NCBI GenBank assembly: GCA_030390025.1 | Contig: JASTWF010000584.1 | Span: 62,001 to 126,000 of the forward strand | DNA from: Squalus acanthias | Taxonomy: Eukaryota | Direction: 5' to 3' | Length of the DNA stretch: 64,000 bases | Shown here: piece by piece, positions 109 to 63,500 of the stretch | Numbering within the stretch: the stretch's first letter is position 1 | Layout of the letters: each line of letters opens with the position of its first letter | Made by a program: the position numbers and the translations under genes | The notes under the pieces: generated by a model | What the model was told of the DNA's origin: nothing | What the model saw: the letters and a program-made list of their open reading frames with translations, nothing else | Databases searched by the model: none

Positions 109-205
109 TTTCTCATGCACTTGAAGATTAAGAATCCAGCCAGTTCAACACTCAATATGATCCCAGCTACAAGCAATCTTACTTTACATTTATTGGAGTC
201 TCTAC
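109..205 (-). CDS. Siglec-like gene A, transmembrane exon: (C)RDSNKCKVRLLVAGIILSVELAGFLIFKCMRK
   Basis: Minus strand reads tttttacag|GT AGA...ATG AGA AA|gtaagt. 97 nt, phase-1 start in frame with the upstream C2 exon. An 18-residue hydrophobic stretch is followed by basic KCMRK. Not in the ORF track. Confidence 0.85.
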
Positions 206-5416: not shown

Positions 5417-5692
5417 ATTCCACACTCAGGTGTACAATGGTGGATGTGCCGTTACCCAATGGGTTCCTCGCTGTGCAATAGAAACTGGCATCATTCTCCC
5501 GTGTTAGGTGACCGGAGTAGATGGACCGAGCACTTGTGTTTAACTGGGTGGTCGTGTTTCCGTCGACCCTGAACCAGGCGTAACTAGATGCCGGGGGGAC
5601 GCTTTCACTGGAGCAGGTTAACATGATGTTGTTTCCCTCTCTTATTCTGCCCGTGGCTCCGCTGATGGCCACTGTTGTCTCCTTGGGTGGAT
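5417..5692 (-). CDS. Siglec-like gene A, third C2-set Ig exon (intact)
   Basis: ttccag|AT CCA CCC AAG...GTG GAA T|gtaagt. 276 nt, phase 1-1. PPKETTV...LTCSSES...YAWFR...DASFYCTARNPLG shows the C-W-C Ig core. Confidence 0.92.
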
Positions 5693-7012: not shown

Positions 7013-7293
7013 TTTCCGCAGTGATGGTTATGGTCCTCTCCACTGCTCCATGTTCATTCTCCGCCACACACTGATAGTCTCCAGCGACGCTGGATGTAAC
7101 ATTAGCAAACTCCAACCACAGCTCATTGTTGGATGTTGTTCTGTTCATTGTGAGACCAAGATGTCACCACGTGAGGTTAGAAGCTGGGATGCTTGTGACC
7201 GAGCAGAGTTTCACTGCAGAATTCCCTTGTTTTATATGATCGATGAATCTTTAATCATATCAAGGGAAGTAATTGAGAGATTCCGTGGTGCGT
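7013..7293 (-). pseudogene. Siglec-like gene A, second C2-set Ig exon, disrupted
   Basis: tttttag|AC GCA CCA CGG (HAPRNLSI). A 1-nt frameshift gives TAA at 7234-7232. The Ig frame continues GNSAVKLCSVTSIPASNLTW*HL...AGDYQCVAENEHG with TGA at 7166-7164. No GT donor follows TITAE. Confidence 0.88.
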
Positions 7294-13648: not shown

Positions 13649-13942
13649 GTTGCACAGTTAGTGCGAGCGTCCGCTCAGATGAAACAGATGGATAACTGAC
13701 TCTGCAGGTGAGAGTCTGTCCGTGGTGTTTTACTGATGGGATCAGGGTCAGAACAGCAGTATATGTCAGAGTGATGCCATGCTGAGTTACTCTGTTTGAT
13801 ACTGACCCGGGTATGTCAGTGTGATTGACCCAGGTTAAGACAGGTGCTGTTCCCTTGCACGTGGTGTTGAAGGTGCAGCTTACGTCCACACGCTTTCCTG
13901 CAATAATTTCAGCCGGGAATATCGTGGGTTTATCTGTGAAAA
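13649..13942 (-). CDS. Siglec-like gene A, first C2-set Ig exon (intact)
   Basis: tgtgttag|TT TTC ACA GAT AAA CCC (alternative in-frame acceptor cacag| at 13933) to GTG CAA C|gtaagt. VSCTFNTTC carries the extra Siglec interdomain Cys, followed by LTW and HHGQTLTCRV. Confidence 0.92.
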
Positions 13943-14939: not shown

Positions 14940-17900
14940 AGGATCTCAGCTCGGAAGATCAGGAAGTAGAATCAGTATGGGTGGAGATAAGGAATAACAA
15001 GGGTCAGAAAACACTGGTAGGGGTATTATATAGGCCCCCTAACAGTAGCTATACTGTTGGACAGAATATTAATCAAGAAATAGTAGGAGCTTGCAACAAA
15101 GGTAATGCAATAATCTTGGGGGACTTTAATCTTCATACAGACTGGACAAATCAAATTGGCAAAGGTAGTCTGGAGGACGAGTTCATGGAATGCATTCGGG
15201 GCAGTTTCCTTGAACAATATGTCATGGAACCAACCAGGGAACAGGTTATTTTAGATCTTGTATTGTGTAATGAGACAGGGTTAATTAGCAATATCATAGT
15301 AAATGATCCTCTGGGGCAGATTGATCATAATATGATAGACTTTCACATTAATTTTGAGAGTGACTTGCCTAAGTCCGAAACTAGAGTCTTAAACTTAAAT
15401 AAAGCCAATTTCATAGGCATGAGGGGTGAGTTGGCTAAGGTAGATTGGTAAAATAGATTAAAAGTATGGCAGTAGATAAGCAGTGGCTAGCATTTAAAGA
15501 AATATTTCATAATTCGCAACAAAAATATATTCCATTGAGAAACAAAAACTCCACGGGAAAAGTGATCCTACTGTGGCTAAATAAAAAAGTTAAGGATAGC
15601 ATTAGATTGAAAGAAGAAGCTTATAATGTTGCAAAGAATAATAGTAAGCCTGAGGATTGGGAGACTTTCAGAAACCAGCAAAGGTTGACCAAAAAATTGA
15701 TAAAAATGGAAAAAATAAAATGAGAGAAAACTAACAAGAAATATAAAAGCAGATTGTAAGAGCTTCTACAAGTATGTAAAAAGGAAGAGAGTAGCAAAAG
15801 TAAACGTTGGTCCCTTAGAGGCTGAGACAGGAGAAATTATTATGGGAAATAAGGAAATGGCAGAAACGTTAAACAAATATTTTGTATCTGTCTTCACAGT
15901 AGAAGACACAAAAAGCATACTAAAAATAATGGGGAATCAAGGTTCTAATGAGGGTGAGGTACTTAACATAATTAATATAAGTAGAGAAAAATTATTAGAC
16001 AAATTAATGGAACTAAAAGCCGACAAATCCCCTGGACCTGATGGCCTACATCCTAAGGTTCTAAAAGAGGTGGTTGAAGAGATAGTGGATGCATTGGCTT
16101 GATCTTTCAAAATTCTCTAGATTCTAGAACGGTCCCAAGGGATTGGAAGGTAGCAAATGTAACACCGCTATTCAAGAAAGGAGGGAGAGATCAAATAGAG
16201 AGCTACAGGCCAGTTAGCATGACATCAGTCGTCAGGAAAATGCTGGACTCCATTGTTAAGGAAGTGGTATCAGGCACTTAGAAAATCATAACATGATTAG
16301 CAGAGTCAACATTGTTTTATGAAAGGGAAATCGTGTTTGACAAATATATTAGAGTTTTTTGAGGATGTAACTAGCAGGGTAGATAAAGGGGAACCATTGG
16401 ATGTAATATATTTGGATTTCCAAAAGGCATTCGATAAGGTGCTACATAAAAGGTTATTACACAAGATTAGGACTCATGGGGTTGGGGGTAATATAATAGC
16501 ATGGATAGAAGATTGGTTAACCGACAGAAAACAGAGAGTAGGGATAAAAGGATCTTTTTCAGGTTGGCAGGCTGTAACTAGTGGGGTGCCGCAAGGATCA
16601 GTGTTGGGGCCTCAGCTGTTTACAATCTATATTAATGGCCTAGATGAAGGGAATGACTGTAATGTATCCAAGTTTGCTGATGATACAAAGCCAGTTGGGC
16701 AGGAAGCTATGAGGAGAACACAAAGGGCTGGATTTTACCTGCCGTGACAAGTTGGCGGCGGGACTGCTGTCGTCCAGGTTCTAGTCCCGTCCCCAGCGAC
16801 GTCCGACGCACAGACGCTATTTTCCCCTGATTGGCCTTGTTAAGCCCGCCCTGCGGGCTTGCCGGCCAATTAAGGGAAAGGCGGTGTCAGATGACATCAG
16901 TTGATGACACTTCATCTGCCGGTTTTCTTAAAGGGACATGCAGCATTTATTTTTGACAGAGGATTTGTCAGTGTTTGACAGCATGAGGTGCTGTCAAACA
17001 CTGACCATCACTGTACAAAGGTAAGCCCTTGTACTAAGGCTCTCCATTTACTCTCTCCTTAGGATAAAACAGATGACAGCTGCAGATGAGGTTACAGAAG
17101 CGATCTGTCACTTCTCCCAATGAGGTGAGGCCACACAAACACTTCAAAGCTTGTCACCTACAGGAAAATCTAAACACATTAAAAATGATTTTCCCCAAAT
17201 CTCCTTACCTCTGATACTCACCAGTGTCCCATTGGATCCTTCACACTACTGCTGCAGTTGTCATCTATACACAAACAATACAACAGACCCACAGCACCCC
17301 TCACCTACCCTGACGGGACTCCCCGGCGTCAGGAAGCCCGCAGCAGAAGTCTCAAAATGGGAAAAAGCCTCTGTTAACAGGCAGTTAAGTGGCTATAATC
17401 CTTATCCTGTAGCTAGGAGTCAGGGCCTATTGGGGACCCGACTCCCGGGAAGATTGGTTGGAGCCGGGTTGGGAGCAGGTTCAGGACCCGCTCCCATTCT
17501 TTTTGATTTTACCAGCAGTTCCGCCTCCAAACCCGCCTCCTCAGGGCTGGTAAAATCCAGCCCTAAGAGTCTTCAAAGGGATATAGATAGACTAAGTGAG
17601 TGGGCAGTAAGGTGGCAGATGGAGTATAATGTAGGGAAATGTGAGGTTAATCACTTTGGTCGGAAGAATAGAAAAACAGAATAATTTTTAAATGGTGAGA
17701 AACTTTCAAATGTTGGTGTTCAGAGAGATTTGGGTGTCCTCGTGCAAGAAACACAGAAAGCTAGCATGCAGGTACAGCAAGCAATAAGGAAGGCAAATGG
17801 CATGTTGGCCTTTATTGCAAAGGGGGTTGGAGTATAAGAGTAAGGAATCTTGCTACAGTTGTACAAGGCCTTGGTGAGACCACACCTGGAGTACTGTGTT

Positions 17901-18447
17901 CAGCTTTGGTCTCCTTATCTGAGGAAGGATATACTTGCCTTGGAGGCAGTGCAACGAAGGTTCACTAGATTGATTCCTGGGAGGAGAGGGCTGTCCTATG
18001 ATGAGAGATTGTGTAGAATGGGCCTATACTCTCTGGAGTTTAGAAGAATGACAGGTGATCTCATTGAAACATACATGATTCTGAAGGGGATTTACAGGGT
18101 AGATGCTGAGAGGTTGTTTCCCCTGGCTGGAGAGTCTAGAACTAGGGCGCATAGTCTCAGGATAAGGGGTCGGCCATTTAAGCCTGAGATGAGGAGGAAT
18201 TTTTTCACTCAGAGGATTGTGAATCTTTGGAATTCTCCACCCCAGAGGGTTGTGGATGCTGAGACTTTGAGTATATTCAAGGCTGAGATAGATAGATTTT
18301 TGGACTCCATGGGATCGAGGGATATGGAGATCGGGCGGGAAAGTGGAGTTGAGGTCGATGATCAGCCATGATCTTATTGAGTGGCGGAGCAGGCTCGAGG
18401 GGCCGTATGGCGTACTCCTGCTCTTATTTCTTATGTTCTTATGTTCT
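14940..18447 (+). mobile_element. CR1 LINE (5'-truncated, disrupted), shared by both arms
   Basis: EN/RT motifs and (tcttatgt)n tail. Mirror copy at 60506-64000. Confidence 0.92.
16725..17563. mobile_element. Non-autonomous Harbinger-type element inside CR1
   Basis: 15-bp perfect TIR GGGCTGGATTTTACC / GGTAAAATCCAGCCC. Splits the CR1 RT just after FADD. Mirror copy at 61391-62224. Confidence 0.85.
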
Positions 18448-18730
18448 TTACTTTGTCTATATGTCAGAATTTAAACACGATTAGAGAGATAGATGGGAGT
18501 TGATAACCTGATAACATTGATGGACACAGTCAAGACATTCAATCATTATAATAAAGTGAGTATTAGAGGATGCTTTAGGACTGAAGTGGAAGATATCACC
18601 AGGATATTGGTAATCAGACGCTGCATTATAATAAGCTGTGTTTTATGTTAATATGTAACCGCCACAGTTTATGTTATTTCCCATTGACTGTTGAACGTGA
18701 ATTATTGAGTAATTATAACACAGCACTTAC

Positions 18731-19096
18731 AAGAAACTTGAAGCAGTGTGTCAGGTTTGTAGCTGTAGCCTCCCTTGTTGTCAGAAAATTCTATCCTGAA
18801 ATAATAAGGACCTGCATCTTCCTGTGTGATGTTGTTTATAATCAGTGAACAGTCGCCATCTTTCAGGTCTCTAGACAGCCGGATCCGATGTCGTAACTGT
18901 GGCGACTGATTGTGATACTTGGAGTGAAAGGCTACAGACCATAATATCCGTCTCTCATTTTTATACCAGGTTCCAACTCTTGTTTGGTTTGACAGAATCG
19001 ATGGATAACTGTAATGACATGGAATCTGTGCACACAAACCTTCCTGTGCTTTCACATCTCGTGGAGTGTTGCCTTTCCACTCTTGTGACAATACAG
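18731..19096 (-). CDS. Siglec-like gene A, V-set sialic-acid-binding Ig exon
   Basis: ctcag|CT GTA TTG...GTT TCT T|gtaagt, 366 nt. Siglec signature: GLCAQIPC, E-strand DCSL, no F-strand Cys, and YYFRIE with the essential Arg. Confidence 0.95.
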
Positions 19097-19523
19097 CTGA
19101 GGAGAAAAATATCAATATTTAGCACTGGATGGCTTTTCGCTCCACTAGACTCGATCTTCAGCCCCTCAGCCACTGGCGCACTGTGGCTGCAATGTGTACC
19201 ATCTACAGGACAAACAAAGAACTCACCAAGGTTACTCAGCAGATGAAAGGGAATCATGGATATGGGAGTGGAAAAGTATGTTCTATATTGACTCAAGGAC
19301 CTCAGGACCCTGTTTAGTGAAGCAAGTCTTCAACCCAACACAAAGCCTAAAAGACCCACCAATGGAGATATATTCTGCGCTGAATTACAATGCAGGAACA
19401 ATGGATTGGAAACCATCAGAACTCACGCCATTTTCTCCATTATGAATTACTATTTAAAACCTTCTTGTTTGGTCTGCAACCCATCTGATTGGCTGGGCTG
19501 ATTCAGTCTACTTGGCACACTTT

Positions 19524-21271
19524 GGCTGCGATTTCCCCAACCTCGGCGGGTCCCTGGCGGGCGAGGTAGATGGCGCGTTGTGACCTCGCTGCTGGCTCCA
19601 TCCCAGCCTCCGACATGACTTTCCCCTGATTGGGCATGTTAAACCCGCCCTGTGTGTTTGCCGGCCAATTGAAGGAAGTGGGTCTGATGACATTATTTGA
19701 TGAGTTTCATTATCAGCCAGTTTCCTTAAAGCGATCATGCGCAAATTTACTTTGACATCTGTACTGTCAGTGTTCCAGTGCATTGAGGTGCTGCAAACAC
19801 TGACAAGCACTGCACAGAGGTGAACGGCTGCACCCAGGCTCACCTATGACTCCCTTCATATGCTTATGGAGGGAGTCACAACACACAGGGTGGTTCTCTT
19901 CCCTTCGAATGGGCGGAAGAGACTTCCCCAGGAGACCAACGCAGCCTGGTTGTACATTGCACAGGAGGGCGCAAGTAGGGATGTCATCAGGAGGACCAGG
20001 CTGCAGTGGCTCAAACCTTTCAATTATCTCAATAGATGACAAAACATTACTGCAAAGTCACACTCAACCTCATCCTGCTGTGCCTCTCATCACATCCTAT
20101 TACTCTGCCTACCCTACCCTACTCCTGCACATCCTTACTCACACCAACTTACCTTGCACCTCCACCCATCCCTCTCTATCGACATTATCATTTCCCCATC
20201 TCACTAGACTCCCCTCACACTCACCCTCATCCTCGTCCAATCATACCAACTAACAACACACAAGGGTAGGCACTTGTGTGTTTTAGCCAATTTTCATGTG
20301 AAGTTTCTGTTAATGTGCTGTCAAACATTGAAATCTTTATTTTCAACACTTTGCGTTCTTGAACAGATTTGTGTACACATTTGGAAGTGGCTTAGTGAGT
20401 TGCAGTGAATGGTGAGACATAACGGCACCCCCTGCAATGCTGATCAGTGTGAAAGGAATGGCTTGGGCATTTTAGGGATGCTTTATGGTGTTGGTGTGGG
20501 GTGGTGCCAACCTTGGCGCATCATGTGGCAGCCAGGATTTACAGCATCAAGTGAAGTAAATGCGGCAATGGTGAGGCTATCCCTGGTGTCCCGGGCAGCA
20601 ATGTGGTCGGGTGCTGATGCCCTCTGTCCTGTCAGCATCAGGTGATTGAGGAGAAGGTTGGTGTGTTTGTTCGTGCTGCTGGTGTGCCTGGTGCTGCTGG
20701 TGTTGCGGCTGATTGTGGTCGGATGCTGAGGACCAAGGTGAGACAGTATGAAGGGCTCCCATGTTGATGGAATAGATGGCAGGTGAAGTTGAGATGACAG
20801 AAGCAATCTGTCAATGGTGAGAGAGGTTGTTCTAATGAGGTGACACTGAATAGAGAGTTTGCTACATACACTTGCAACCTGCAAAAAGCTGAATCTGGCT
20901 TCCAAATGCAGTAAGGAACAGCTGCTGAGCTTGGAAAGTAAACAGCTGTGAGATGGGAGCTTTTATAGCACATTTGCAGCTGTCAAGTAATGAGATGATT
21001 CCACGAGCAGCGTGGACCCCACTGGCGAGCTGGTAAATTCTAAAGGTGAGCTCAAAACTGTTGTTAATCCTCTGTTAACAAGGTCATACTGACCTGAATT
21101 GCCTCCCCCGCCGCTACGTGTCGGGTCTGCTCAGCGCTGACAGACCCGACATTTGATAAAGGTGTGTGTCAGCGGGTTGACAGTGGGGTCCCGATCTGCT
21201 GTTTAAAAACACACTTTCCCTCCCGACCCGCCACCGATCGTGCCTGCTGACCCCCCTGGAAAATTCCCCAC
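19524..21271. mobile_element. Internally deleted, degenerate Harbinger element
   Basis: Imperfect TIRs with TTT flanks on both sides and a Myb/SANT remnant (LHMLMEGVTTHRVVLFP...AWL). Mirror copy at 57713-59429. Confidence 0.75.
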
Positions 21272-21274
21272 TTT

Positions 21275-21726
21275 GTGTCTTCATTGTCTAAGGAATCACT
21301 TTGGATCCTCATTGTCTAAGGAATCTCTTTGGATCCTCATTTTCTAAGGAATCTCTTTGTATCCTCATTGTCTAAGGAATCATTTTGGATGTTCATTGTC
21401 TGAGGAATCACTTTAGATCTCCATTGTCTATGGAATCACTTTGGATCCTCATTGTCTAAGGAATCTCTTTGTATCCTCATTGTCTAAGGAATCTCTTTGT
21501 ATCCTCATTGTCTAAGGAATCTCTTTGTATCCTCATTGTCTAAGGAAGCACTTTGTATCCTCATTGTCTATGGAATCATTTTGGATCTTCATTGTCAAAG
21601 GAATCATTTTGGATCTTCATTGTCTGAGGAATCACTTTAGATCTTCATTGTCTATGGAATCACTTTGGATCTTCACTGACTAAGGAATCATTTTGGAGCT
21701 TCATTGTCTAAGGATTATTTTAGATA
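21275..21726. repeat. 28-bp minisatellite, about 16 copies
   Basis: Unit ggatcctcattgtctaaggaatcacttt. Confidence 0.95.
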
Positions 21727-25732: not shown

Positions 25733-25772
25733 CTTGGAGAAGTGACAGGAGGCAGTAAGATATCCTGATCAT
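25733..25772 (-). CDS. Siglec-like gene A, leader (signal peptide) coding segment of exon 25814-25733
   Basis: tttctgtttcag| acceptor, ATG ATC AGG...CAA G|gtaat. Encodes MIRISYCLLSLLQ, which joins in phase 1 to AVLSQEWKG. Confidence 0.88.
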
Positions 25773-26714: not shown

Positions 26715-27600
26715 AACTTGCATTTCTATAGCGGCTTTCACTACCTCAGGACGTCCCAAAGCGCTTTACAGCCAATGAAGTACTTTTTGAAGTGTTGTCA
26801 CTGTTGTAATGCAGGAAAGGTGTCAGCCATTTTGCGCACAGCAAGCTCCCACAAATATAATGTGATCATGACCAGGTCATCTGGTTTTCAGTGATGCTGG
26901 TTGAGGGATAAATATTGGCCCCAGGGCATCGGGGAGAACTCCCCTGCTTTTCTTCCAAATAGTGTCATGGGACCTTTTAGGTTCAGCTTAAAGGGCAAAC
27001 AGGGCCTCAATTTAACTTCCCATCCGAAAGACGGCACCTCCGACAGTGCAACACTCCCTCAGTACAGCACGCTAACAGTGCAGCACTCCCTCAGTACTGC
27101 CCTTCCGACAGTGCGGCAATCCCTCAGTACTGCCACTCCGACAGTGCAGCACTCCCTCAGTACTGCCCTTCCGACAGTGCGGCAATCCCTCAGTACTGCC
27201 CCTCCGACAGTGCAGCACTCCCTTGGTACTGCCCCTCCAACAGTGCAACGCTCCCTCAGTACTGCCCGTGCAACAGTGCAGCACTCCCTCAGTACTGCCC
27301 CTCTGACAATGCAGCGCTCCTTCAGTACTGCCCCTCCTACAGTGCAGCACTCACTCAGTACTGCCCCTCCGACAGTGCAGCGCTCCCTCAGTACAGCCCC
27401 TCCGACAGTGCAGCACTCCCTGAGTACTGCCCCTCCGACAGTGCTGCGCTCCCTCAGTACTGCCCCTCCGACAGTGCAGCACTCCCTCAGTACTGCCCCT
27501 CCGACAGTGCAGCGCTCCCTCAGTACTGCCGCTCTGACAGTGCAGCTCTCCCTCAGTACTGGCCCTGGGCACTTCAGCCTGGATCTTGTGCTCAAGTCTC
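26715..27600 (-). mobile_element. DeuSINE (SacSINE1-like) with internal minisatellite expansion
   Basis: Deu-type core and a ...tatagaaatgcaagt tail. Mirror copy at 54598-55950. Confidence 0.8.
27040..27560. repeat. 33-bp minisatellite, about 16 copies
   Basis: Unit cagtactgcccctccgacagtgcagcactccct. Confidence 0.95.
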
Positions 27601-37400: not shown

Positions 37401-37759
37401 GGGGTAAAAATTAGGTCGCGCCCCATTTGGGGCGCAAATATCGTCTGGACGCAAATATTAGCGCCTGGCGCTAATTATCGGCACTGACTGGAAACTTCAC
37501 TTTTACCGCCCTGGGAGGTGAGTGGAGCGCTAAATCAGGCGCTGCACACCTGTCTTAAGGCGCAAAGGCCAAGGAGTGAGTCGCTAACTCAGTGCGCGAG
37601 CGCAGCGCAGCTGCTGCCAGTTAGCGAGGGAACACAGACACACTGGCGCCGGCCACTTCTTAAAGCGGGGGGGGCCAACTTGCTCCCCAGCCACACCCTG
37701 CTCATTGCAGCCTTGAATCTCGGCCTGGAGAGACCTGTGAATCCATTTTGCTGCCAAGG

Positions 37760-39906
37760 ATGGAGAGGGTGAGAGAACACGCTCATCGCTTCACCGAGCG
37801 GGCCTTGGATGCTCTGGTTGGCGCGGTGGAGCGCAGAAGATGTATGCTCTTCCCTGAGAGTGCCAGGAGGCCTTTGCCACGCGAGTTCAGAAGAATGTGG
37901 AGGGAGGTGGCTCAGAGCATCTCCTCCAGGAGCATGGTGCCCAGGACCCATACTCAATGCCGCAAAAAGTTCAACGACCTCACTCGGGTCGTCAGGGTGA
38001 GTGGCTTTTTCTCAATACCTCTCCATCCCTCCATCTCAACCTCACTCTATGGCCAGAGGGTCTTAAAACCCCAATGCACAACACTCATCCAACACCTATG
38101 GCCCTTTCATGAAACACACACACACATTCCACACTTTGCATACAGTAAGGGCTATTCACCTATGGGAGGCACATCAGGCAAGACCATGGCTGCATACAGT
38201 AAGGGCTATTCACCTATGGGAGGCACATCAGGCAAGACCATGGCTGTATACAGTAAGGGCTATTCACCTATGGGAGGCACATCAGGCAAGACCATGGCTG
38301 CATACAGTAAGGGCTATTCATCTATGGGAGGCACATCAGGCAAGACCATGGCTGCATACAGTAAGGGCTATTCACCTATGGGAGGCACATCAGGCAAGAC
38401 CATGGCTGTATACAGTAAGGGCTATTCACCTATGGGAGGCACATCAGGCAAGACCATGGCTGCATACAGTAAGGGCTATTAACCTATGGGAGGCACATCA
38501 GGCAAGACCATGGCTGCATACAGTAAGGGCTATTCACCTATGGGAGGCACATCAGGCAAGACCATGGCTGTATATTTACTCAGATGCTGTCCTTTTTCTT
38601 ACAGGCCAAGCTGGCGCATAATCGGAGACAGCAGCAACGGACAGGTGGAGGGCGGCCTCAGCTGCAACCCCTCAGCGATCTTGAGGAGCGCGTCCACAGG
38701 ATTGTGGCAAGCCGGGTGATCGGTCCCGTCGCCACTGGAGACGCCGACCCTGTTCTGCACAGCAATGGTAAGGTCATCACCTTTTTGTCCTCTCTCCTTC
38801 CACTTGTCCCTCACAACACCAGCCTTTGACACTTTCAATCCAACTTGCTAACTCGCTGCACTTATTCCTCCCTTACTGCCACCCTGTCCTCACGCTAAAG
38901 CCACTCTTGTACCTCCCTGCTTTCAGATGGTGATTCACCAGCTGAGGAGACGGGCCCTGAAGCTGCCACTGGGAGTGATGCTGCAGCTGAGGAGGAAGAG
39001 GAAGCCGGAGCATCAGTGCCACCCTCTCCCGAGGAAGCCCATGCCCACACTGGGAACACGCCTTCCCTGGAGGGGAGCAGGGGGGAAGGGTCTGATGAGG
39101 GTGAAGCTCCAGGACCCAGCGGGCTGCAGCAACGCCATAGGGGGGGTAGGGAAGAACGGGGGCCTTCTCCCCAGAGGGAGAGTATGCCAGACACTCCTAC
39201 TGCAATGGACGCAGAGGAGGAGCGGCTGATCGCAGAAATGAACACCCAGGCGGTGGGCATGCACACTGAGCTCATGGGTGCAGTGGGAAGGGTGCCCGAA
39301 TGCATTGAGTCACTGGCAAGGAGTGTGGAGCACTTCGCTGTAGCACAGGCGGATGCCACACTAACGCTTAGTGCTGCAATTCAGTCACTGGCTGCCGTGA
39401 TCCCATCTCTGACTGCTCTCATACAGACTCAGATTGAGGCCACGCGAGCACAGACTGCTGCCAACCTCGATGGTTCGTGCACATGTCCCCGGGGCTGTCA
39501 CCGCGCCGCAGCAGGCCGGCAATCTGTTCTCCAGCAGATTGCTCCGGATGCTGAAGTGCTGCCCCGTGGGAGTGCCAGTGTGTCGGGCGAGCAGGGAGTT
39601 GCTGTCCTCTCTCACGATGACAGCATTCCTGCTGCCAACACTGTCACTTCTCCACTGCACTTGCCACCGCCTGTAGGACAGACTGCTGCCGCCCATGCAG
39701 AGTTGGTGCAGTCTGCAGCCGGGCCCTCCAGGCCCAGAAGTGGTCGAGGCCGTCCTTCAGGGGCATCTGCAGTGTCAGGGTCTGACGAGCAGCAGCCTTC
39801 CACCAGCCTTGCTGCAGCCACTGAGGTCCCATTACGGAGGAGCAGTAGGGTTAGAAGGGGGGAAGTGCGCAAGGGAAGGAGATCACCCTCGAAGGGCAAA
39901 AAGTAG
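37760..39906 (+). CDS. Harbinger Myb/SANT-like DNA-binding protein, 3 exons (37760-37996, 38605-38767, 38927-39906), about 459 aa, intact
   Basis: RFTERALDALV...WREVA...RTHTQCRKKFNDL and TGGG motifs. Canonical GT-AG introns join the exons in frame to TAG at 39906. Basic C-terminus. Confidence 0.85.
38137..38574. repeat. 54-bp tandem repeat, 8 copies, inside intron 1 of the Myb-like gene
   Basis: Unit tgcatacagtaagggctattcacctatgggaggcacatcaggcaagaccatggc. Confidence 0.95.
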
Positions 39907-54413: not shown

Positions 54414-54643
54414 GTAAGTAACGGAACAATTGTAATTAACTTCCATGACCAACGTCTTCCTTTGTTGGTGTTGTGAGTTTATAAAGACAGATTCCAATGA
54501 TTGATGCCTTCTCAAGATTTCTACTTATTACTGAGATCTGGGCTTAGGGCTGAAGTCTGTTGTGCAGGACATCTTTCTAGTTCAAGGAACAAGGGAAGTC
54601 CAGAGACTTGAGCACAAGATCCAGGCCGAAGCACCCAGGGCTT

Positions 54644-55630
54644 GTACTGAGGGAGCGCTGCACTGTCGGAGGGGCAGTACTGAGGGAGCGCTGCACTGTC
54701 GGAGGGGCAGTACTGAGGGAGTGCTGCCCTGTCGGAGGGGCTGTACTGAGGGAGCGCTGCACTGTCGGAGGGGCAGTACTGAGGGAGTGTTGCACTGTCG
54801 GAGGGGCAGTACTGAGGGAGTGCTGCCCTGTTGGAGAGGCAGTACTGAGGGAGTGCTGCACTGTCAAAGGGGCAGTACTGAGGGAGCGCTGCACTGTCGG
54901 AGGGGCTGTACTGAGGGAGTGCTGCACTGTCAAAGGGGCAGTACTGAGGGAGCGCTGCACTGTCGGAGGGGCAGTACTGAGGGAGTGCTGCACTGTTGGA
55001 GGGGCTGTACTGAGGGAGTGCTGCACTGTCGGAGGGGCAGTACTGAGGAAGTGCTGCCCTGTCGGACAGGCAGTACTGAGGGAGTGCTGTACTGTCGGAG
55101 GGGCAGTACTGAGGGAGTGCTGCCCTGTCGGAGAGGCAGTACTGAGGGAGTGCTGCACTGTCAGAGGGGCAGTACTAAGGGAGCGCTGCACTGTCGGAGG
55201 GGCAGTACTGAGGGAGTGCTGCACTGTCGGAGGGGCTGTACTGAGGGAGTGCTGCACTGTCAGAGGGGCAGTACTGAGGGAGCGCTGCACTGTAGGAGGG
55301 GCAGTATTGAGGGTGCACTGCACTGTGGGATGGGCAGTACTGAGAGAGTGCTAAACTGACAGATGGGCAGTAATGAGGGAGCGCTGCACTGTCGGAGGGG
55401 CAGTACTGAGGGAGTACTGCACTGTTGGAGGGGCTGTACTGAGAGAGTGCTGCACTGTTGGAGGGGCAGTACTGAGGGAGTGCTGCACTGTTGGAGGGGC
55501 AGTACTGAGGGAGTGCTGCACTGTCGGAGGGGCTGTACTGAGAGAGTGCTGCACTGTCGGAGGGGCTGTACTGAGAGAGTGCTGCACTGTTGGAGGGGCA
55601 GTACTGAGGGATGCTGCACTGTCGGAGGTG
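54644..55630. repeat. 33-bp minisatellite, about 30 copies, within DeuSINE 54598-55950
   Basis: Unit cagtactgagggagtgctgcactgtcggagggg. Confidence 0.95.
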
Positions 55631-56144
55631 CCGTCTTTCGGATGGGAAGTTAAAGTGAGGCCCTGTTTGCCCTCTTAGCTGAACCTAAAAGGTCCCATGG
55701 CACTAATTGGAAGAAAAGCAGGGGAGTTCTCCCCGATGCCCTGGGGCCAATATTTATCCCTCAACCAGCATCACTGAAAACCAGACGACCTGGTCATGAT
55801 CACATTGCTATTTGTGGGAGCTTGCTGTGCGCAAAATGGCTGACACCTTTCCTGCATTACAACAGTGACGACACTTCAAAAAGTACTTCATTGGCTGTAA
55901 AGCGCTTTGGGACGTCCTGAGGTTGTGAAAGCTGCTATAGAAATGCAAGTTTTTCTTTCTTAAAGCCTTGTAACTCACTGCAGAGCACCTATCATCCCAC
56001 GTTGAATCAATTTGTCAGTGAAGACATTGACTGAAAGCAGTTTTGATCTCTCGAGCGCTATTGGGCAAGAGGTGAGGTCTCATTCACTCCTTTCTGTTTC
56101 AGGCATTGAGAGTGAGAAGTTGATGAAATATCTGGGAGCGGACA

Positions 56145-56184
56145 ATGATCAGGATATCTTACTGCCTCCTGTCACTTCTCCAAG
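56145..56184 (+). CDS. Siglec-like gene B, leader coding segment of exon 56103-56184
   Basis: MIRISYCLLSLLQ G|gtaat, identical to copy A. Confidence 0.88.
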
Positions 56185-57514
56185 GTAATATCATCGTCTG
56201 CTTGGACATATTTATGGTTAATAGTCTTTGCTCAAGATCATTCTGATTGAGCAATGATTGGGGACCAAATTCAGCAGTGACCCAGCGTAGTAACTCGCAC
56301 CAAGTCGCGTTCACCCATCACCCCACTGCCTGCTGACATACATTTTCCAGTCTGGCAACAATTGGAGGAGCACAGACATCTTGGAGGGCTGGAGGAGGTT
56401 ACAGAGATGGGGAGTGGAGCGAGGCCACGGGGTGATTTGAAATCGAGGATGAGGATTTTAAATTCAAAGTGTTGCCGGCCCGGGAGCCAATGTAGGTCAC
56501 CGAGCACAGGGGGAAACGGATTGAGGAGAGAAGGGGGATAAAAACTGAGGGAAGAAATCTCTCCCGATGCTAGAATTCCGATAGCAAAGTCCTGAAATTT
56601 GTGTCTTTTGCTGATTTTAGTGAGAAGTCGCCCTGAAGGCAACATAGCAGCACTTAGAATAGACAGGCAGTTCAGCTTCCTGCCCATTCTCACCATGATA
56701 GCAACCACTATAAGGGTGCAAAATAACTGAAAGATAGAAAGAAGGCATACCAGGAAATGTATAAAGGTCTCAAATATGCTGAGTTTCTCTGTTTGCCTCT
56801 GATCTGCTCTGCAGTAAAATTTCACAGAATCATAGAATCTTATATTACAGAAAGAGTTCATTCAGCCCATCATGCCTGTGCTGTCTCTTTGGTGGAGAAA
56901 TTCAACTATAGCCCGACAGTGATGATTACAATCCAAGCCAAGGGGAGGTGAGGAGGATTATTTTTACGCAGCGAGTTGTTCTGATCTGGAATGCACTGCC
57001 TGAAAGGGCGGTGGAAGCAGATTCAATGGTAACTTTCAAAAGGGAACTGGATAAAAACTTGAAGTGGAAAAATTTTCAGGGCTATGAGGAAAGAGCACGG
57101 GGTGAGAGTAATTGGATCGCTCCTTCAAAGAGCCGACACAGGCACGATGGGCTGATTGAACTCCTTCTGTGTTTTAAGATTCCGTGATTCCATGATTTAA
57201 CTTCCTTATCAGCAACTCATTTTCTTTCCTGTTAGAATCATGAATATTGCAGAAGAACAGGGAACAGGAGGTGTTTGCCATCATTGTTTAAGGTGGGGCC
57301 CAGTTCAGTTTTAACAAACACGCACTGAGTTCATCTGTAAAAGTCATGAACCCAACACAGCTGCACCTCCGACACATTCAGAGCTCAGGCTAGAGGCGCT
57401 TTGCTGCTGTGCTTCCAAGTGTCTGCTGGAGTCGGGCCAGTGCTGAGCCTGGGGACAAGTCAGTCTACAATACTGTATTGGAATCAACCTACAACAACAT
57501 TGGTTTTGTGTCTA

Positions 57515-57712
57515 AAATAATCCCTTGGACAATGAGGATCCAAAATGATTCCTTAGACAATGAGGATCCAAAATGATTCCTTAGACAATGAGGATCCAAA
57601 ATGATTCCTTAGACAATGAGGATACAAAGAGATTCCTTAGACAATGAGGATACAAAGAGATTCCTTAGACAATGAGGATACAAAGTGATTCCTTAGACAA
57701 TGAAGACTCAAA
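57515..57712. repeat. 28-bp minisatellite, about 7 copies
   Basis: Reverse complement of the 21275-21726 unit. Confidence 0.92.
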
Positions 57713-59429
57713 GTGGGGAATTTTCTGGGTGGGTCAGCAGGCACGATCGGTGGCGGGTCGGGTGGGAAAGTGTGTTTTTTGACAGGAGATCGGGACCCTG
57801 CTGTCAACCCGCTGCCACACACCTTTATCAAATGTCGGGTCTGTCAGCGCTGAGCAGACCCGACACGTAGCGGCGGGGGAGGCAATTCAGGTCAGTATGA
57901 CCTTGTTACCAGAGGATTAACAACAATTTTGAGCTCACCTTTAGAATTTACCAGCTCGCCAGTGGGGTCCACGCTGCTCGTGGAATCATCTCATTACTTG
58001 ACAGCTTGAAATGTGCTATAATAGCTCCCATCTCACAGCTGTTTAATTTCCAAGCTCAGCAGCTGTTGCTTACTGCATTTGGAAGACAAATTCAGCTTTT
58101 TGCAGGTTGCAAGTGTTTGGAGCAAACTCTCTCACCATTGACAGATTGCTTCTGTCATCTCAACTTCACCTGCCATCTATTCCATCAACATGGGAGCCCT
58201 TCATACTGTCTCACCTTGGTCCTCAGCATCCGACCACAATCAACCGCAACACCAGCAGCACCAGGCACACCAGCAGCACGAACAAACACACCAATATTCT
58301 CCTCAATCACCTGATGCTGCACAGGACAGAGGGCTTCAGCACCCGACCACATTGCTGCCCGGGACACCAGGGATGGCCTCACCATCGCCACATTTACTTC
58401 ACTTGATGCTGTACACCCTGGCTGTCACATGATGCGCCAAGGTTGTCACCACCACACACCAACACCATAAAGCATCCCTACAATGTCCAAGCCATTCCTT
58501 TCACACTCATCAGTGTTGCAGGGGGGTGCTATTATGTCTCACCATTCACTGCAACTCACTAAGCCACTTCCAAAGGTGTACACAAATCTGTCCAAGAACG
58601 CAAAGTGTTGAAAATAAATATTTCAATGTTTGACAGCACATTAACAGAAACTTCACATGAAAATTGGCTAAAACAAACAAGTGCCTACCCTTGTGTGTTG
58701 TTAGTTGGTATGATTGGACTAGGATGAGGGTGAGTGTGAGGGGTGGCAAGTGAGATGGGGAAGTGATAATTTAGATAGAGAGGGATGGGTGGAGGTGCAA
58801 GGTAAGTTGGTGTGAGTCAGGATGTGCAGGAGTAGGGTAAGGAAGGCAGAGTAATAGGATGTGATGAGAGGCACAGCAGGATGAGGTTGAGTGTGGCTTG
58901 GCAGTAATGTTTCGTCATCTATTGAGATCATTGGAAGGTTTGAGCCACTGCAGCCTGGTCCTCCTGATGACATCCCTGCTTGTCCCCTCCTGTGCAATGT
59001 GCAACCAGGCTGCGTTGGTCTCCTGGGGAAGTCTCTTCCGCCCATTCGAAGGGAAGAGAACCACCCTGTGTGTTGTGACTCCCTCCATAAGCATATGAAG
59101 GGAGTCATAGGTGAGCCTGGGTGCAGCCATTCACCTCTGTGTAGTGCTTGTCAGTGTTTGCAGCACCTCAATGCACTAGAACACTGACAGTACAGATGCC
59201 AAAGTAAATTTGCGTATGATCCCTTTAAGGAAACCGGCTGATAAGGAAACTTATCAAATAATGTCATCAGACCCGCTTCCTTCAACTGGCCGGCAAACGC
59301 ACAGGGCGGGCGTAATATGCCCAATCAGGGGAAAGTCATGTCGGAGGCTGGTTGAAGCCAGCAGCGAGGTCATGACCTGCCACCGATCTCGCCCGCCAGG
59401 GACCCGCCGAGGTTGGGGAAATCGCGGCC
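57713..59429. mobile_element. Degenerate Harbinger element (mirror of 19524-21271)
   Basis: AAA flanks on both sides and a Myb remnant in ORF 58915-59130. Confidence 0.75.
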
Positions 59430-59856
59430 AAAGTGTGCCAAGCAGACTGAATCAGCCCAGCCAATCAGATGGGTTGCAGACCAAACAAGAAGGTTTTAAA
59501 TAGTGATTCATAATGGAGAAAATGGCGTGAGTTCTGATGGTTTCCAATCCATTGTTCCTGCATTGTAATTCAGCGCAGAATATATCTCCATTGGTGGGTC
59601 TTTTAGGCTTTGTGTTGGGTTGAAGACTTGTTTCACTAAACAGGGTCCTGAGGTCCTTGAGTCAATATAGAACATACTTTTCCACTCCCATGTCCAGGAT
59701 TCCCTTTCATCTGTTGAGTAACCTTGGTGAGTTCCTTGTTTGTCTTGTAGATGGTACACACTGCAGCCACAGTGCGCCAATTGCAGAGGGGCTGAAGATC
59801 GAGTCTAGTGGAGCGAAAAGCCATCCAGTGCTAAATATTGATATTTATCTCCTCAG

Positions 59857-60225
59857 CTGTATTGTCACAAGAGTGGAAAGGCAACACTCCACGAGATGTG
59901 AAAGCACAGGAAGGTTTGTGTGCACAGATTCCATGTCATTACCGTTATCCATCGAGTCTGGCAAACCAACCGCGAGTTGGAATCTGGTATAAAAGTGACA
60001 GATGGAATGCACGGTCTGTAGCCTTTCACTCCAAGGATCACAATCGCGAATCGCCACGGTTACGACATCGGACCTGGCTGTCTGGAGACCTGAAAGATGG
60101 CGACTGTTCCCTGATTATAAACGACATCACACAGCAAGATGCAGGTCCTTATTATTTCAGGATAGAATTTTCTGACAACAAGGGAGGCTACAGCTACAAA
60201 CCTGACACACGGCTTCAAGTTTCTG
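59857..60225 (+). CDS. Siglec-like gene B, V-set Ig exon
   Basis: ctcag|CT GTA...GTT TCT G|gtaagt, 369 nt. GLCAQIPC, DCSL and YYFRIE motifs. Confidence 0.95.
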
Positions 60226-60505
60226 GTAAGTGCTGTGTTATAATTACTCAATAATTCACGTTCAACAGTCAATGGGAAATAACATCAACTGTGGCGGTTA
60301 CATATTAACATAAAACACAGCTTATTATAATGCAGCGTCTGATTACCAATATCCTGGTGATATCTTCCACTTCAGTCCTGAAGCATCCTCTAATACTCAC
60401 TTTATTATAATGATTGAATGTCTTGACTGTCCATCAATGTTATCAGGTTATCAACTCCCATCTATCTCTCTAATCGTGTTTAAATTCTGACATATAGACA
60501 AAGTA

Positions 60506-63500
60506 AAGAACATAAGAACATAAGAAATAAGAGCAGGAGTCGGCCATACGGCCTCTCGAGCCTGCTCCGCCACTCAATAAGATCATGGCTGATCATCGAC
60601 CTCAACTCCACTTTCCCGCCCGATCTCCATATCCCTCGATCCCCTGGAGTTCAAAAATCTATCTATCTCAGCCTTTAATATACTCAAAGTCTCAGCATTC
60701 ACAGCCTTCTGGGGTGGAGAATTCCAAAGATTCACAATCCTCTGAATGAAGAAATTCCTCCTCATCTCAGTCTTAAATAGCCGACCCCTTATCCTGAGAC
60801 TATACCCACTAGTTCTAGACACTCCAGCCAGGGGAAACAGCTACTCAGCATTTACCCTGTAAATCCCCTTCAGAATCTTGTATGTTTCAATGAGATCACC
60901 TGTCATTCTTCTAAACTCCAGAGAGTATAGGCCCATTCTACACAATCTCTCATCATAGGACAGCCCTCTCATCCCAGGAATCAATCTAGTGAACCTTCGT
61001 TGCACTGCCTACAAGGCAAGTATATCCTTCCTCAGATAAGGAGACCAAAACTGTGCACAGTACTCCAGGTGTGGACTCACCAAGGCCCTGTACAATTGTA
61101 GCAAGATTCCTTACTCTTATACTCCAACCCCCTTTGCAATAAAGGCCAACATGCCATTTGCCTTCCTTATTGCTTGCTGTACCTGCACGCTAGTTTTCTG
61201 TGTTTCTTGCACGAGGACACCCAAATCTCACTGAACACCAACATTTGAAAGTTTCTCACCATTTAAAAATTATTCTGTTTTTCTATTCTTCCTACCAAAG
61301 TGAATAACCTCACATTTCCCTACATTATGCTCCATCTGCCACCTTACTGCCCACTCACTTAGTCTATCTACAGTCCTTTGCAGACTCTTAGGGCTGGATT
61401 TTACCAGCCCTGAGGAGGCGGGTTTGGAGGAGGAACTGCTGGCAAAATCAAAAAGAACGGGAGCGGGTCCCGAACCCACTCCCAACCCGCCTCCAAACAA
61501 TTTTCCCGGGAGTCGGGTCCCCAATTTGCGCCTGGGACTCGACTCCTAGCGGCGGGAAGTGGATTATAGCCACTTAACTGCCTGTTAACAGAGGCTGTTT
61601 CCCATTTTGAGACTTCTGCTGCGGGCTTCCCGATGTCGGGGAGTCCCGCCAGGTTACGTGAGGCGTGCTGTGGTTCTGTTGTAATGTTTGTGTATAGATG
61701 ACAGCTGCAGAAGTGGTATGCAGGATCCAATGGGACACTGGTGAGTATCAGAGGAAAGGAGATGTTGGGAAAGTCATTTTTAATGTGTTCAGATTTTCCT
61801 GTAGGTTACAAGTTTGGATGTGTTTGTGTGGCCTCATCTCATTGGGAGAAGTGACAGATCGCTTCTGTAACCTCATCTGCAGCTGCCATCTGTTTTATCC
61901 TGAGGAGAGCCTGGGTACAAGGGCTTACCTTTGTACAGTGATTGCCAGTGTTTGACAGCACCTCATGCTGTCAAACACTGACAAATCATCTGTCAAAAAT
62001 AAGTGCTACATGTCCCTTTAAGAAAACCGGCAGATGAAGTGTCATCAACTGACGTCATCTGACACCGGCTTTCCCTTAATCGGCCGGCAAGCCCGCAGGG
62101 CGGGCTTAACAAGGCCAATCAGGGGAAAATAACGTCTGTGCGTCAGGCATCGCTGGGGGCGGGACTAGAACCCGGAAGGCAACAGTCCCGCCCCCAACTC
62201 GTCTCGGCAGGTAAAATCCAGCCATTTGTGTTCTCCTCATAGCTTCCTGTCCCAACTAGCTTTGTATCATCAGCAAACTTGGATACATTACACTCAGACC
62301 CTTCATCTAGGCCATTAATATAGATTGTAAATAGCTGAGGCCCCAACACTGATCCTTGCGACATCCCACTAGTTACAGCCTGCCAATCTGAAAAAGATCT
62401 TTTTACCCCTACTCTCTCTTTTCTGTCGGCTAACCAATCTTTTATCCATGCTACTATATTACCCCCAACCCCATGAGCCCTAATCTTGTGTAATAACCTT
62501 TTATGTGGCACCTTATCGAATGCCTTTTGGAAATTCAAATATATTAAATCTGCCGGTTCCCCTTTGTCTACCCTGCTAGTTACATCCTCAAAAAACTCTA
62601 AAATATTTGTCAAACACGATTTCCCTTTCATAAAACCATGTTGACTCAGTCTAATCATGTTATGTTTTTCTAAGTGCCCTGATACCACTTCCTTAAAAAT
62701 GGAGTCCAACATTTTCCCGACAACTGATATCAGGCTAACTGGCCTGTAGTTCCCTGTTTTTTCTCTCCCTCCTTTCTTGAATAGCAGTGTTACATTTGCT
62801 ACCTTCCAATCGATTGGGACCTTTCTAGAATCTAGGGAATTTTGAAAGATCAAAACCAATGCATCTACTATCTCTTCAACCACCTCTTTTAGAACCCTAG
62901 GATGTAGGCCATCAGGTCCAGGGGATTTGTCAGCTTTTAGTCCCATTAATTTGTCTAATGGCCCAAAAATTCATGAGGAAGCCTTCGTGCGAGGGTAAGG
63001 CTTCCCCGCGATCTCTCACTGCGCGTTGGCTTTTTCAGTTCCAGCTCGCACGAACTTGATGTTCTGGACAGCTGCTGTGCTGGGCTTGCGTATCCCACAG
63101 GCGCAGTTAATTCGTGCGAGCTGTGGGATCACGTGACTCAGTTATAGCCAATGGCAGCACACCATCTTCCATTCATAACTTTCACATAAGTGCTGTGAAA
63201 GCTATGAATACTATAGCCTCCCAAAAGAACAGCTAAACCTCAATTAAATTTAAAAACAAACCCATCACATTAATAAAATAAGTATAGTTAAATAAATTAA
63301 CCATTTTAAATAAAAAATTAAATTTTTGAATTTTTTTTAAATCTTTTAAAAAGTTATAAAAATAAACTTATCTGTCTTTAAAGTCTCTAAAAAAGATATA
63401 CCTGTTAAAAAAAATTCAAAATAATACTTAATTCACTACTTACCTTGTTAAAAGTGGGTCTTACTCCTCCTTTTTTTATGTGTAGAATCTTCCATACTTA

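What the first reader, a model, noticed from the sequence alone, without database searches (positions are those of the whole stretch)
18731..19096. V domains diverge almost only at replacement sites, clustered around the C-C' loop
Seen, by manual alignment with 59857-60225: about 20 amino-acid changes plus a one-codon indel, against about 3 synonymous changes. They concentrate from the BC loop to the D strand (YKNERRILWS vs YKSDRWNARS), while the cysteines and YYFRIEF are unchanged. Known: the C-C' loop sets Siglec glycan specificity, and mammalian Siglec V-set exons evolve rapidly. Inference: diversifying selection on ligand or pathogen recognition.
Basis: partly seen in the sequence, partly recalled or inferred. 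Interest (0 to 1): 0.7.

Follow-up and report, generated by a model that had tools for sequence, protein, structure and literature searches.

The report
Shark Siglec cluster diversifying its sugar-sensing loops
These are the sensing exons of two head-to-head genes in a large shark family of Siglec-type immune receptors; the two differ mostly at one loop tip, and across the family that domain shows selection to diversify, likely to change what it binds, as in mammals, although this pair alone is too small a sample to show it and one copy is likely decaying.

Summary
The two exons are real, inverted paralogous Siglec V-set exons (18731-19096 lies on the minus strand) of a cartilaginous-fish cluster with at least 44 V exons, 30 intact. 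Twenty amino-acid changes and a one-codon indel are confirmed; synonymous changes number 4-4.5. Clustering is real (permutation p 0.0001-0.003; C-C' tip 45% divergent at replacement sites). But 'almost only replacement' is near neutral expectation (83% against 76% of sites): pair dN/dS 1.5, p 0.2-0.3, borderline against introns. The selection inference holds at family level: 28 V exons give dN/dS 1.46 (C2 exon 0.53), with fast sites at the C-C' tip and F-G/G strand; the signal shrinks but survives indel removal, multi-base and rate-variation models and my recombination/CpG simulations. It parallels mammalian CD33-related Siglecs; binding and expression are untested. The scan noted shark Siglec clusters before on other DNA of this genome, not this selection test.

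The parts
18731..19096 (-). Gene A V-set exon (366 nt, open); three N-glycan sequons; donor -1 base T instead of G
59857..60225 (+). Gene B V-set exon (369 nt, open); no N-glycan sequon; best solved match sialoadhesin V domain
18939..18959 (-). C-C' tip codons 46-52 of gene A (7.5 replacement changes against B)
59994..60014 (+). C-C' tip codons 46-52 of gene B
25733..25772 (-). Gene A signal-peptide exon (ATG to donor)
56145..56184 (+). Gene B signal-peptide exon (ATG to donor)
13649..13942 (-). Gene A first C2-set exon, open
7014..7293 (-). Gene A third Ig exon, dead: frameshift, in-frame stop, no donor site
5417..5692 (-). Gene A further C2/I-set exon, open
109..205 (-). Gene A transmembrane exon (Glu in the helix, no Lys or Arg in its core); tail exons lie left of the window
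15994..21464 (.). Left arm of the inverted duplication that holds the V exon; pairs with 57520-62959 at 93.4% identity
57520..62959 (.). Right arm of the inverted duplication; the rest of gene B (C2, C2, C2, C2, TM, tail) lies right of the window at G000:C3426:128484-156624

Best explanation
The two exons encode the V-set domains of two head-to-head genes in an expanded shark Siglec cluster whose V domains, unlike the next C2 domain, evolve with an excess of replacement changes at the C-C' tip and the F-G/G region, likely because selection keeps altering what they bind around a fixed sialic-acid-gripping arginine. Shown: gene anatomy, the cluster, the statistics, a loop block shared by conversion. 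Inferred: the core site (Trp6, Arg101, Tyr111, Tyr113, aligned to sialoadhesin) still grips sialic acid while the variable tip and, in the A type, three N-glycans change which underlying glycan or microbial protein fits; new loop variants arise by point change and are moved between inverted neighbours by gene conversion; copies then decay (birth and death). The window pair is one snapshot: an A-type against a B-type loop block, plus five changes private to A that may be decay.
For: Siglec V-set by sequence (sialoadhesin E 3e-15) and fold (TM 0.86); Arg101 in 27 of 28 paralogues and 34 of 34 homologues from other sharks and rays. Family of 28 distinct intact V exons: M0 dN/dS 1.46, above 1 at p=0.002; 11-gene subclade 3.44, p 4e-6; M1a/M2a 2dL 108, class of 24% of sites at 4.2; M8a/M8 107; 44 after dropping 19 indel-prone columns; 91 with multi-base changes, 24 with site rate variation as well. 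Control C2 exon (25 distinct): 0.53, no positive class, p=0.3. Null simulations: 19 of 19 nearly neutral runs gave M0 at most 0.59 and 2dL at most 64; 18 of 18 fully neutral runs with CpG decay and recombination gave M0 0.74-1.20, 2dL at most 41; 6 of 6 rate-variation nulls gave at most 13.8 against 25.6. Of 18 sites with posterior above 0.95, 6 are at the C-C' tip and 6 in F-G/G. Within the pair, replacement divergence is 0.078 in V against 0.037 and 0.029 in two C2 exons (p 0.006-0.009). Conversion: gene B17a carries the A-type block with the codon deletion inside B-type flanks (10 of 131 diagnostic sites A-like, 8 of them in the exon, run p=0.0002) and has an intact ITIM exon. C-C' loop role in Siglec-7/9 specificity: passage in PMC7165337.
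Against: Pair alone not significant. The five-gene clade that holds the pair has whole-domain dN/dS 1.13 (p=0.74), though its site test is nominally significant (2dL 13.9), a value that recombining nulls reach. A third clade gives 1.10 (p=0.68). Thirteen disjoint pairs give a ratio of 1.19 (p=0.14), 1.41 with transition weighting (p=0.011). Synonymous divergence is also raised in the fast segments (C-C' tip 0.127 against 0.183; F-G/G 0.087 against 0.092), and allowing rate variation cuts the statistic from 108 to 24-26, so much of the raw signal is fast change of any kind. Recombination alone made many null runs nominally significant, so the p-values overstate. The C2 control has a shorter tree (1.47 against 3.77) and is not the same gene set. 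The codon models are my own code, branch lengths scaled rather than refitted, and only 6 rate-variation nulls were run. Some 'paralogues' may be alleles on separate contigs. In the pair the selected F-G/G region is unchanged.
Confidence: 0.7

Rival explanations
1. For this pair the divergence is neutral: copy A is a decaying pseudogene and the loops are merely unconstrained, so replacement and silent changes accumulate in proportion to sites.
For: A's third Ig exon has a frameshift, a stop and no donor in all three A copies; its ITIM exon is split by a 6.4-7.8 kb insertion; A alone has Arg at position 76 (Gly in 27 of 27 other paralogues, 33 of 34 other species) and Thr at 42 (aliphatic in all others); 83% replacement against 76% expected.
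Against: Changes are clustered, not scattered; the A-type loop block also sits in an intact ITIM gene; A's C2 exons show dN below dS against B; A's signal, V, first C2, last Ig and TM exons are open with canonical splice sites, so skipping the dead exon would keep the frame.
Confidence: 0.3
2. The fast segments are mutation or conversion hotspots: blocks imported from older lineages raise both silent and replacement divergence, and site models misread this as selection.
For: Synonymous divergence is raised in the same segments; 6 of 26 pair differences are CpG-type; conversion is shown; recombining nulls give 2dL up to 64.
Against: Whole-domain dN/dS of 1.46, and 3.44 in a subclade, exceeds all 43 null runs (maximum 1.20); the signal persists with rate variation and multi-base changes; introns next to the exon are more alike (2.1%) than the exon (7.1%).
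Confidence: 0.2
3. A and B are an activating/inhibitory receptor pair like Siglec-11/16, and the V differences reflect escape of one partner from a pathogen.
For: Head-to-head layout and conversion around the V exon, as described for SIGLEC11/16 (passages of PMC5701461); A copies lack an in-frame ITIM while B2, B17a, B17b and Z keep it.
Against: In this window both genes have the split ITIM exon; neither TM core has Lys or Arg; the TM Glu of A also stands in ITIM-bearing genes Z, B2, B17a, B17b; paired Siglecs are kept alike in V, these differ most there.
Confidence: 0.1

Closest known systems
Mammalian CD33-related Siglec cluster
   Same: Expanded cluster, first Ig domain evolving faster than the second, gene conversion, null copies (passages of PMC6288428); tail with a proximal ITIM-type and a distal Tyr motif in intact copies (the two-motif layout of CD33-related tails is recalled).
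   Different: Cartilaginous fish; at least 44 V exons in this assembly; V domain scores higher to sialoadhesin, and V plus C2 higher to MAG, than to CD33-related structures; orthology not tested. PMC7226832 (passages) states that fish genomes lack inhibitory CD33-related Siglecs; the passages concern teleosts and the text has no occurrence of 'shark' or 'cartilaginous'.
Primate SIGLEC11/SIGLEC16
   Same: Head-to-head genes, conversion over the V exon, a pseudogene allele acting as donor (passages of PMC5701461).
   Different: There conversion keeps binding alike between an inhibitory and an activating partner; here no activating TM residue is present and the V loops differ most.
Siglec-7 and Siglec-9
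   Same: Differences concentrated in a six- to seven-residue C-C' loop with the essential arginine kept (passage of PMC7165337).
   Different: There a loop swap was shown to switch glycan specificity; here binding is untested.
Sialoadhesin (Siglec-1) V domain, PDB 1QFO/1ODA; MAG
   Same: Best sequence and fold matches of the V domain (32% identity, TM 0.85-0.86); MAG best for V plus C2 profile; teleost MAG carries an ITIM.
   Different: These are described as conserved genes, sialoadhesin as not evolving rapidly; this family is multicopy and fast.

Membership tests
Siglec | N-terminal V-set domain followed by C2-set domains, TM and tail (type I membrane protein) | tested here: met
   Exon maps for A and B; A has one dead Ig exon
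Siglec | Essential arginine on strand F | tested here: met
   Arg101 in YYFRIEF aligns with the sialoadhesin F-strand Arg, on strand 96-104 of the model; kept in both copies
Siglec | Odd cysteine pattern: three Cys in V, extra Cys in the first C2 (pattern recalled) | tested here: met
   Cys21, 26, 83 in 28 of 28 paralogues; CTFNTTC in the first C2 exon; the disulfides themselves not tested
Siglec | Binds sialylated glycans | not testable with these tools
   Needs a binding assay
CD33-related Siglecs | Clustered, fast-evolving V domain, conversion, pseudogenes | tested here: met
CD33-related Siglecs | Proximal ITIM plus distal ITIM-like motif | tested here: inconclusive
   Present in Z, B2, B17a, B17b as L[VL]YANI and TEYA.I (ends in Ile, outside the strict L/V signature quoted in PMC7226832); cut off from the reading frame in both window genes
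CD33-related Siglecs | Common descent with mammalian CD33-related genes to the exclusion of Siglec-1, MAG, CD22 | not tested
   No tree with mammalian sequences was built; similarity ranks sialoadhesin and MAG first
Paired activating/inhibitory Siglecs | One partner with ITIM, the other with a basic TM residue | tested here: not met
   No Lys or Arg in either TM core; both window genes lack an in-frame ITIM

The most novel reading that the evidence does not exclude
Sharks run a Siglec arms race of their own: a cluster of dozens of inhibitory Siglecs, expanded independently of or long before the mammalian CD33-related genes, in which the specificity-setting B-C to D block (with its N-glycan sites) is passed as a cassette between inverted neighbours, and ITIM-less or broken copies such as gene A serve as a reservoir of binding specificities for intact inhibitory genes.
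Probability: 0.25. Interest if true: 0.65.

Novelty: new member of a known kind. Interest (0 to 1): 0.38.

Why it matters
Rapid V-domain evolution of inhibitory Siglecs is usually discussed for mammals, and a teleost study says fish lack such genes. A shark cluster with the same evolutionary behaviour would put the sialic-acid self-recognition arms race near the base of jawed vertebrates or show that it arose twice, and the A-type and B-type domains, which share the core site but differ in one block, are a ready natural loop-swap experiment. The pattern itself is the expected one for immune receptor clusters, so it is not a surprise.

Tried and rejected
Pairwise dN/dS as proof of selection: rejected, not significant. 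Activating/inhibitory pair in this window: rejected on TM and tail. TM Glu as a sign of activation: rejected, shared with ITIM genes. Expression: no RNA holder listed; contigs of four runs from related organisms were laid on the B exon, at about 80-95% likeness, and say nothing on these two genes; not used as evidence. Phage search: no match, uninformative. A hydrophobicity scan missed the short signal exons; homologue search found them. and the C2b lines were printed in the wrong frame and redone. Fourteen of 44 V exons were left out as broken and two as identical before the codon models; of 30 C2 loci one was broken and four identical. Broken V exons were not modelled as a neutral control. 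No complex was predicted. Literature: five searches (siglec with cartilaginous fish, shark plus CD33, Chondrichthyes/elephant shark/elasmobranch, teleost, and shark or skate names) listed no paper on shark Siglec evolution; I saw listings of the top 20-25 rows only, and subscription journals are missing, so this is weak. PMC516556 and PMC3015071 are not held; the Siglec evolution review of Bornhofft et al. 2018 was seen only as a reference line and may cover cartilaginous fish. No supplements were read.

Full report
Observation. The two stretches are exact exons with AG and GT at their ends. Copy A (19096-18731) reads on the minus strand and copy B (59857-60225) on the plus strand; they lie in the arms of an inverted duplication, 93.4% identical over 5.5 kb. 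They differ by 20 amino acids in 120 codons, one codon missing in A, and 4-4.5 synonymous changes.

Is the ratio more than chance? No. There are 274 replacement and 86 silent sites, so 76% of neutral changes would be replacements; 21.5 of 26 (83%) are. dN/dS is 1.5, p 0.22, 0.20-0.34 under other weighting. Against 4768 aligned intron bases (5.4% divergent) p is 0.048-0.076; against the 780 bases next to the exon (2.1%) p is 2e-5. The clustering is more than chance (p 0.0001-0.003). On an AlphaFold model (pLDDT 87) codons 46-52 form the tip between strands C and C'; they hold 7.5 replacement changes (45% of sites), the B-C loop 3, the C'-D link 3, D to E-F 5, strands F and G none. Compared with the same two genes' C2 exons (14 replacement, 11 silent changes) the V exon has more replacement change (p 0.006-0.009).

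What it is. The domain is a Siglec V-set: best solved match mouse sialoadhesin (E 3e-15; TM 0.86), with Trp6, Arg101 and the G-strand aromatic aligned and identical in both copies. All 94 homologues at E<=1e-20 are named from sharks and rays, so the genome (3.7 Gb) is inferred to be a cartilaginous fish. Genome searches, capped and so lower bounds, yielded 44 V exons, 30 intact, 28 distinct, on contigs C17, C3, C3542, C1048 and C3426.

Gene anatomy. A: signal exon, V, C2, a dead third Ig exon (frameshift, stop, donor lost; the same in all three A copies), a further Ig exon, TM, tail. B: signal exon, V, four open Ig exons, TM, tail. In A and in B of this window the last exon is split by a 7-8 kb insertion that begins with retroelement-like sequence, ending the frame before the tyrosine motifs; four relatives (Z, B2, B17a, B17b) keep the exon whole with LxYANI and TEYAxI motifs. 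Neither TM core has a basic residue. So this is not a classical on/off pair, and A is either a short-tailed receptor that skips the dead exon (frame would be kept) or a pseudogene.

Where the pair's differences come from. Gene B17a, the inverted partner of an A copy on C17, carries the A-type block from the B-C loop to past strand D, including the codon deletion, inside B-type flanks (p=0.0002): gene conversion, direction unresolved. That block gives three N-glycan sequons in A and B17a against none in B1, B2 and B17b. Five replacement changes are private to A; Gly76Arg and Ile42Thr hit positions conserved across the family and other species and look like decay. The three A copies have identical V exons and introns 0.1-0.3% apart.

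Family-level selection. With my own GY94 codon-model code on 28 V exons: M0 1.46-1.48 (above 1, p=0.002), M1a/M2a 2dL 108 with 24% of sites at 4.2, M8a/M8 107. Fast sites: 9, 33, 40, 42, 46-52, 63, 66, 106-116. The first C2 exon (25 distinct) gives 0.53 and no positive class. Leaving out the pair's own clade, 7 of its 20 differences still fall on the 19 sites flagged in the other 23 genes (p=0.017). Robustness: 44 without indel-prone columns, 91 with multi-base changes, 24-26 with site rate variation. Recombination and CpG decay inflate the test (null 2dL up to 64) but none of 43 null runs reached the observed M0 or statistic. Against: the signal is strongest in one subclade (3.44), the pair's own clade has whole-domain 1.13, disjoint pairs give 1.19-1.41, and silent divergence is also high in the fast segments.

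How it likely works. Shown: a fixed core site and variable rim, conversion, copy turnover. From established Siglec biology: the F-strand arginine binds sialic acid and the C-C' loop sets preference for the underlying glycan (passage of PMC7165337); first domains of CD33-related Siglecs evolve fast, with pathogens a proposed driver (passages of PMC6288428). Inferred: the shark receptors sense self sialoglycans through the core and signal through ITIMs in intact copies; selection from changing host glycans or microbial mimics favours new rims; conversion spreads them; copies lose tails or exons. That N-glycans near a Siglec site can mask binding is recalled, not checked.

Comparison and verdict. 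It works like the mammalian CD33-related cluster; membership in that clade was not tested, and similarity points as much to sialoadhesin and MAG. Passages were read of PMC6288428, PMC13358205, PMC7165337, PMC5701461, PMC7226832 and PMC8455134; none treats shark Siglec selection. Earlier notes of this scan describe shark Siglec clusters on other pieces of this genome, none near this window. New member of a known kind; interest 0.38.

Noticed in passing
G000:C3426:148145-156624 and 59113-51928 (contig coordinates): Last exon of both window genes is split by a 7-8 kb retroelement-like insertion upstream of the ITIM; gene B1's 3' half is A-like (TM 99% to A) while its 5' half is B-like, so B1 looks chimeric.
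   Followed up: partly
G000:C3426 whole against G000:C17:62.17-62.36 Mb: C3426 holds two A-B units about 135 kb apart at 98-99% identity; C17 holds one similar unit. C3426 may be a second haplotype with a tandem duplication or an assembly duplicate.
   Followed up: partly
window 109-205 (-): A glutamate sits in the TM helix of A, Z, B2, B17a, B17b and two named sawshark homologues; B1 has glycine. Role unknown.
   Followed up: partly
G000:C3426:31336, 42331, 167564, 177651: Signal-peptide exon copies in inverted pairs with no V exon found beside them on the fetched contig.
   Followed up: no
window 18731-19096 (-); L004: A-type V block carries three N-glycan sequons; B-type has none; most other paralogues have one at position 88-90.
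   Followed up: partly
window 21269-21725, 57511-57715, 27031-27566, 54637-55634, 38137-38574: Tandem repeats of about 28, 33 and 54 bases; the first two in both arms with different copy numbers, the third inside an open frame at 37664-38479 that resembles a Myb/SANT-like transposon protein (resemblance recalled).
   Followed up: no
G000:C30:6.2-8.0 Mb; C3486; C3542:1.15-1.21 Mb; C17:62.41, 62.49, 63.80 Mb: Further, more distant V-set clusters (28-45% identity to A) appeared in the protein search.
   Followed up: no
L028: One intact paralogue has Lys instead of the essential Arg.
   Followed up: no
G000:C17:63735734-63736015: Third repeat of the C2b exon in gene B17b is open but has lost its GT donor.
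   Followed up: no
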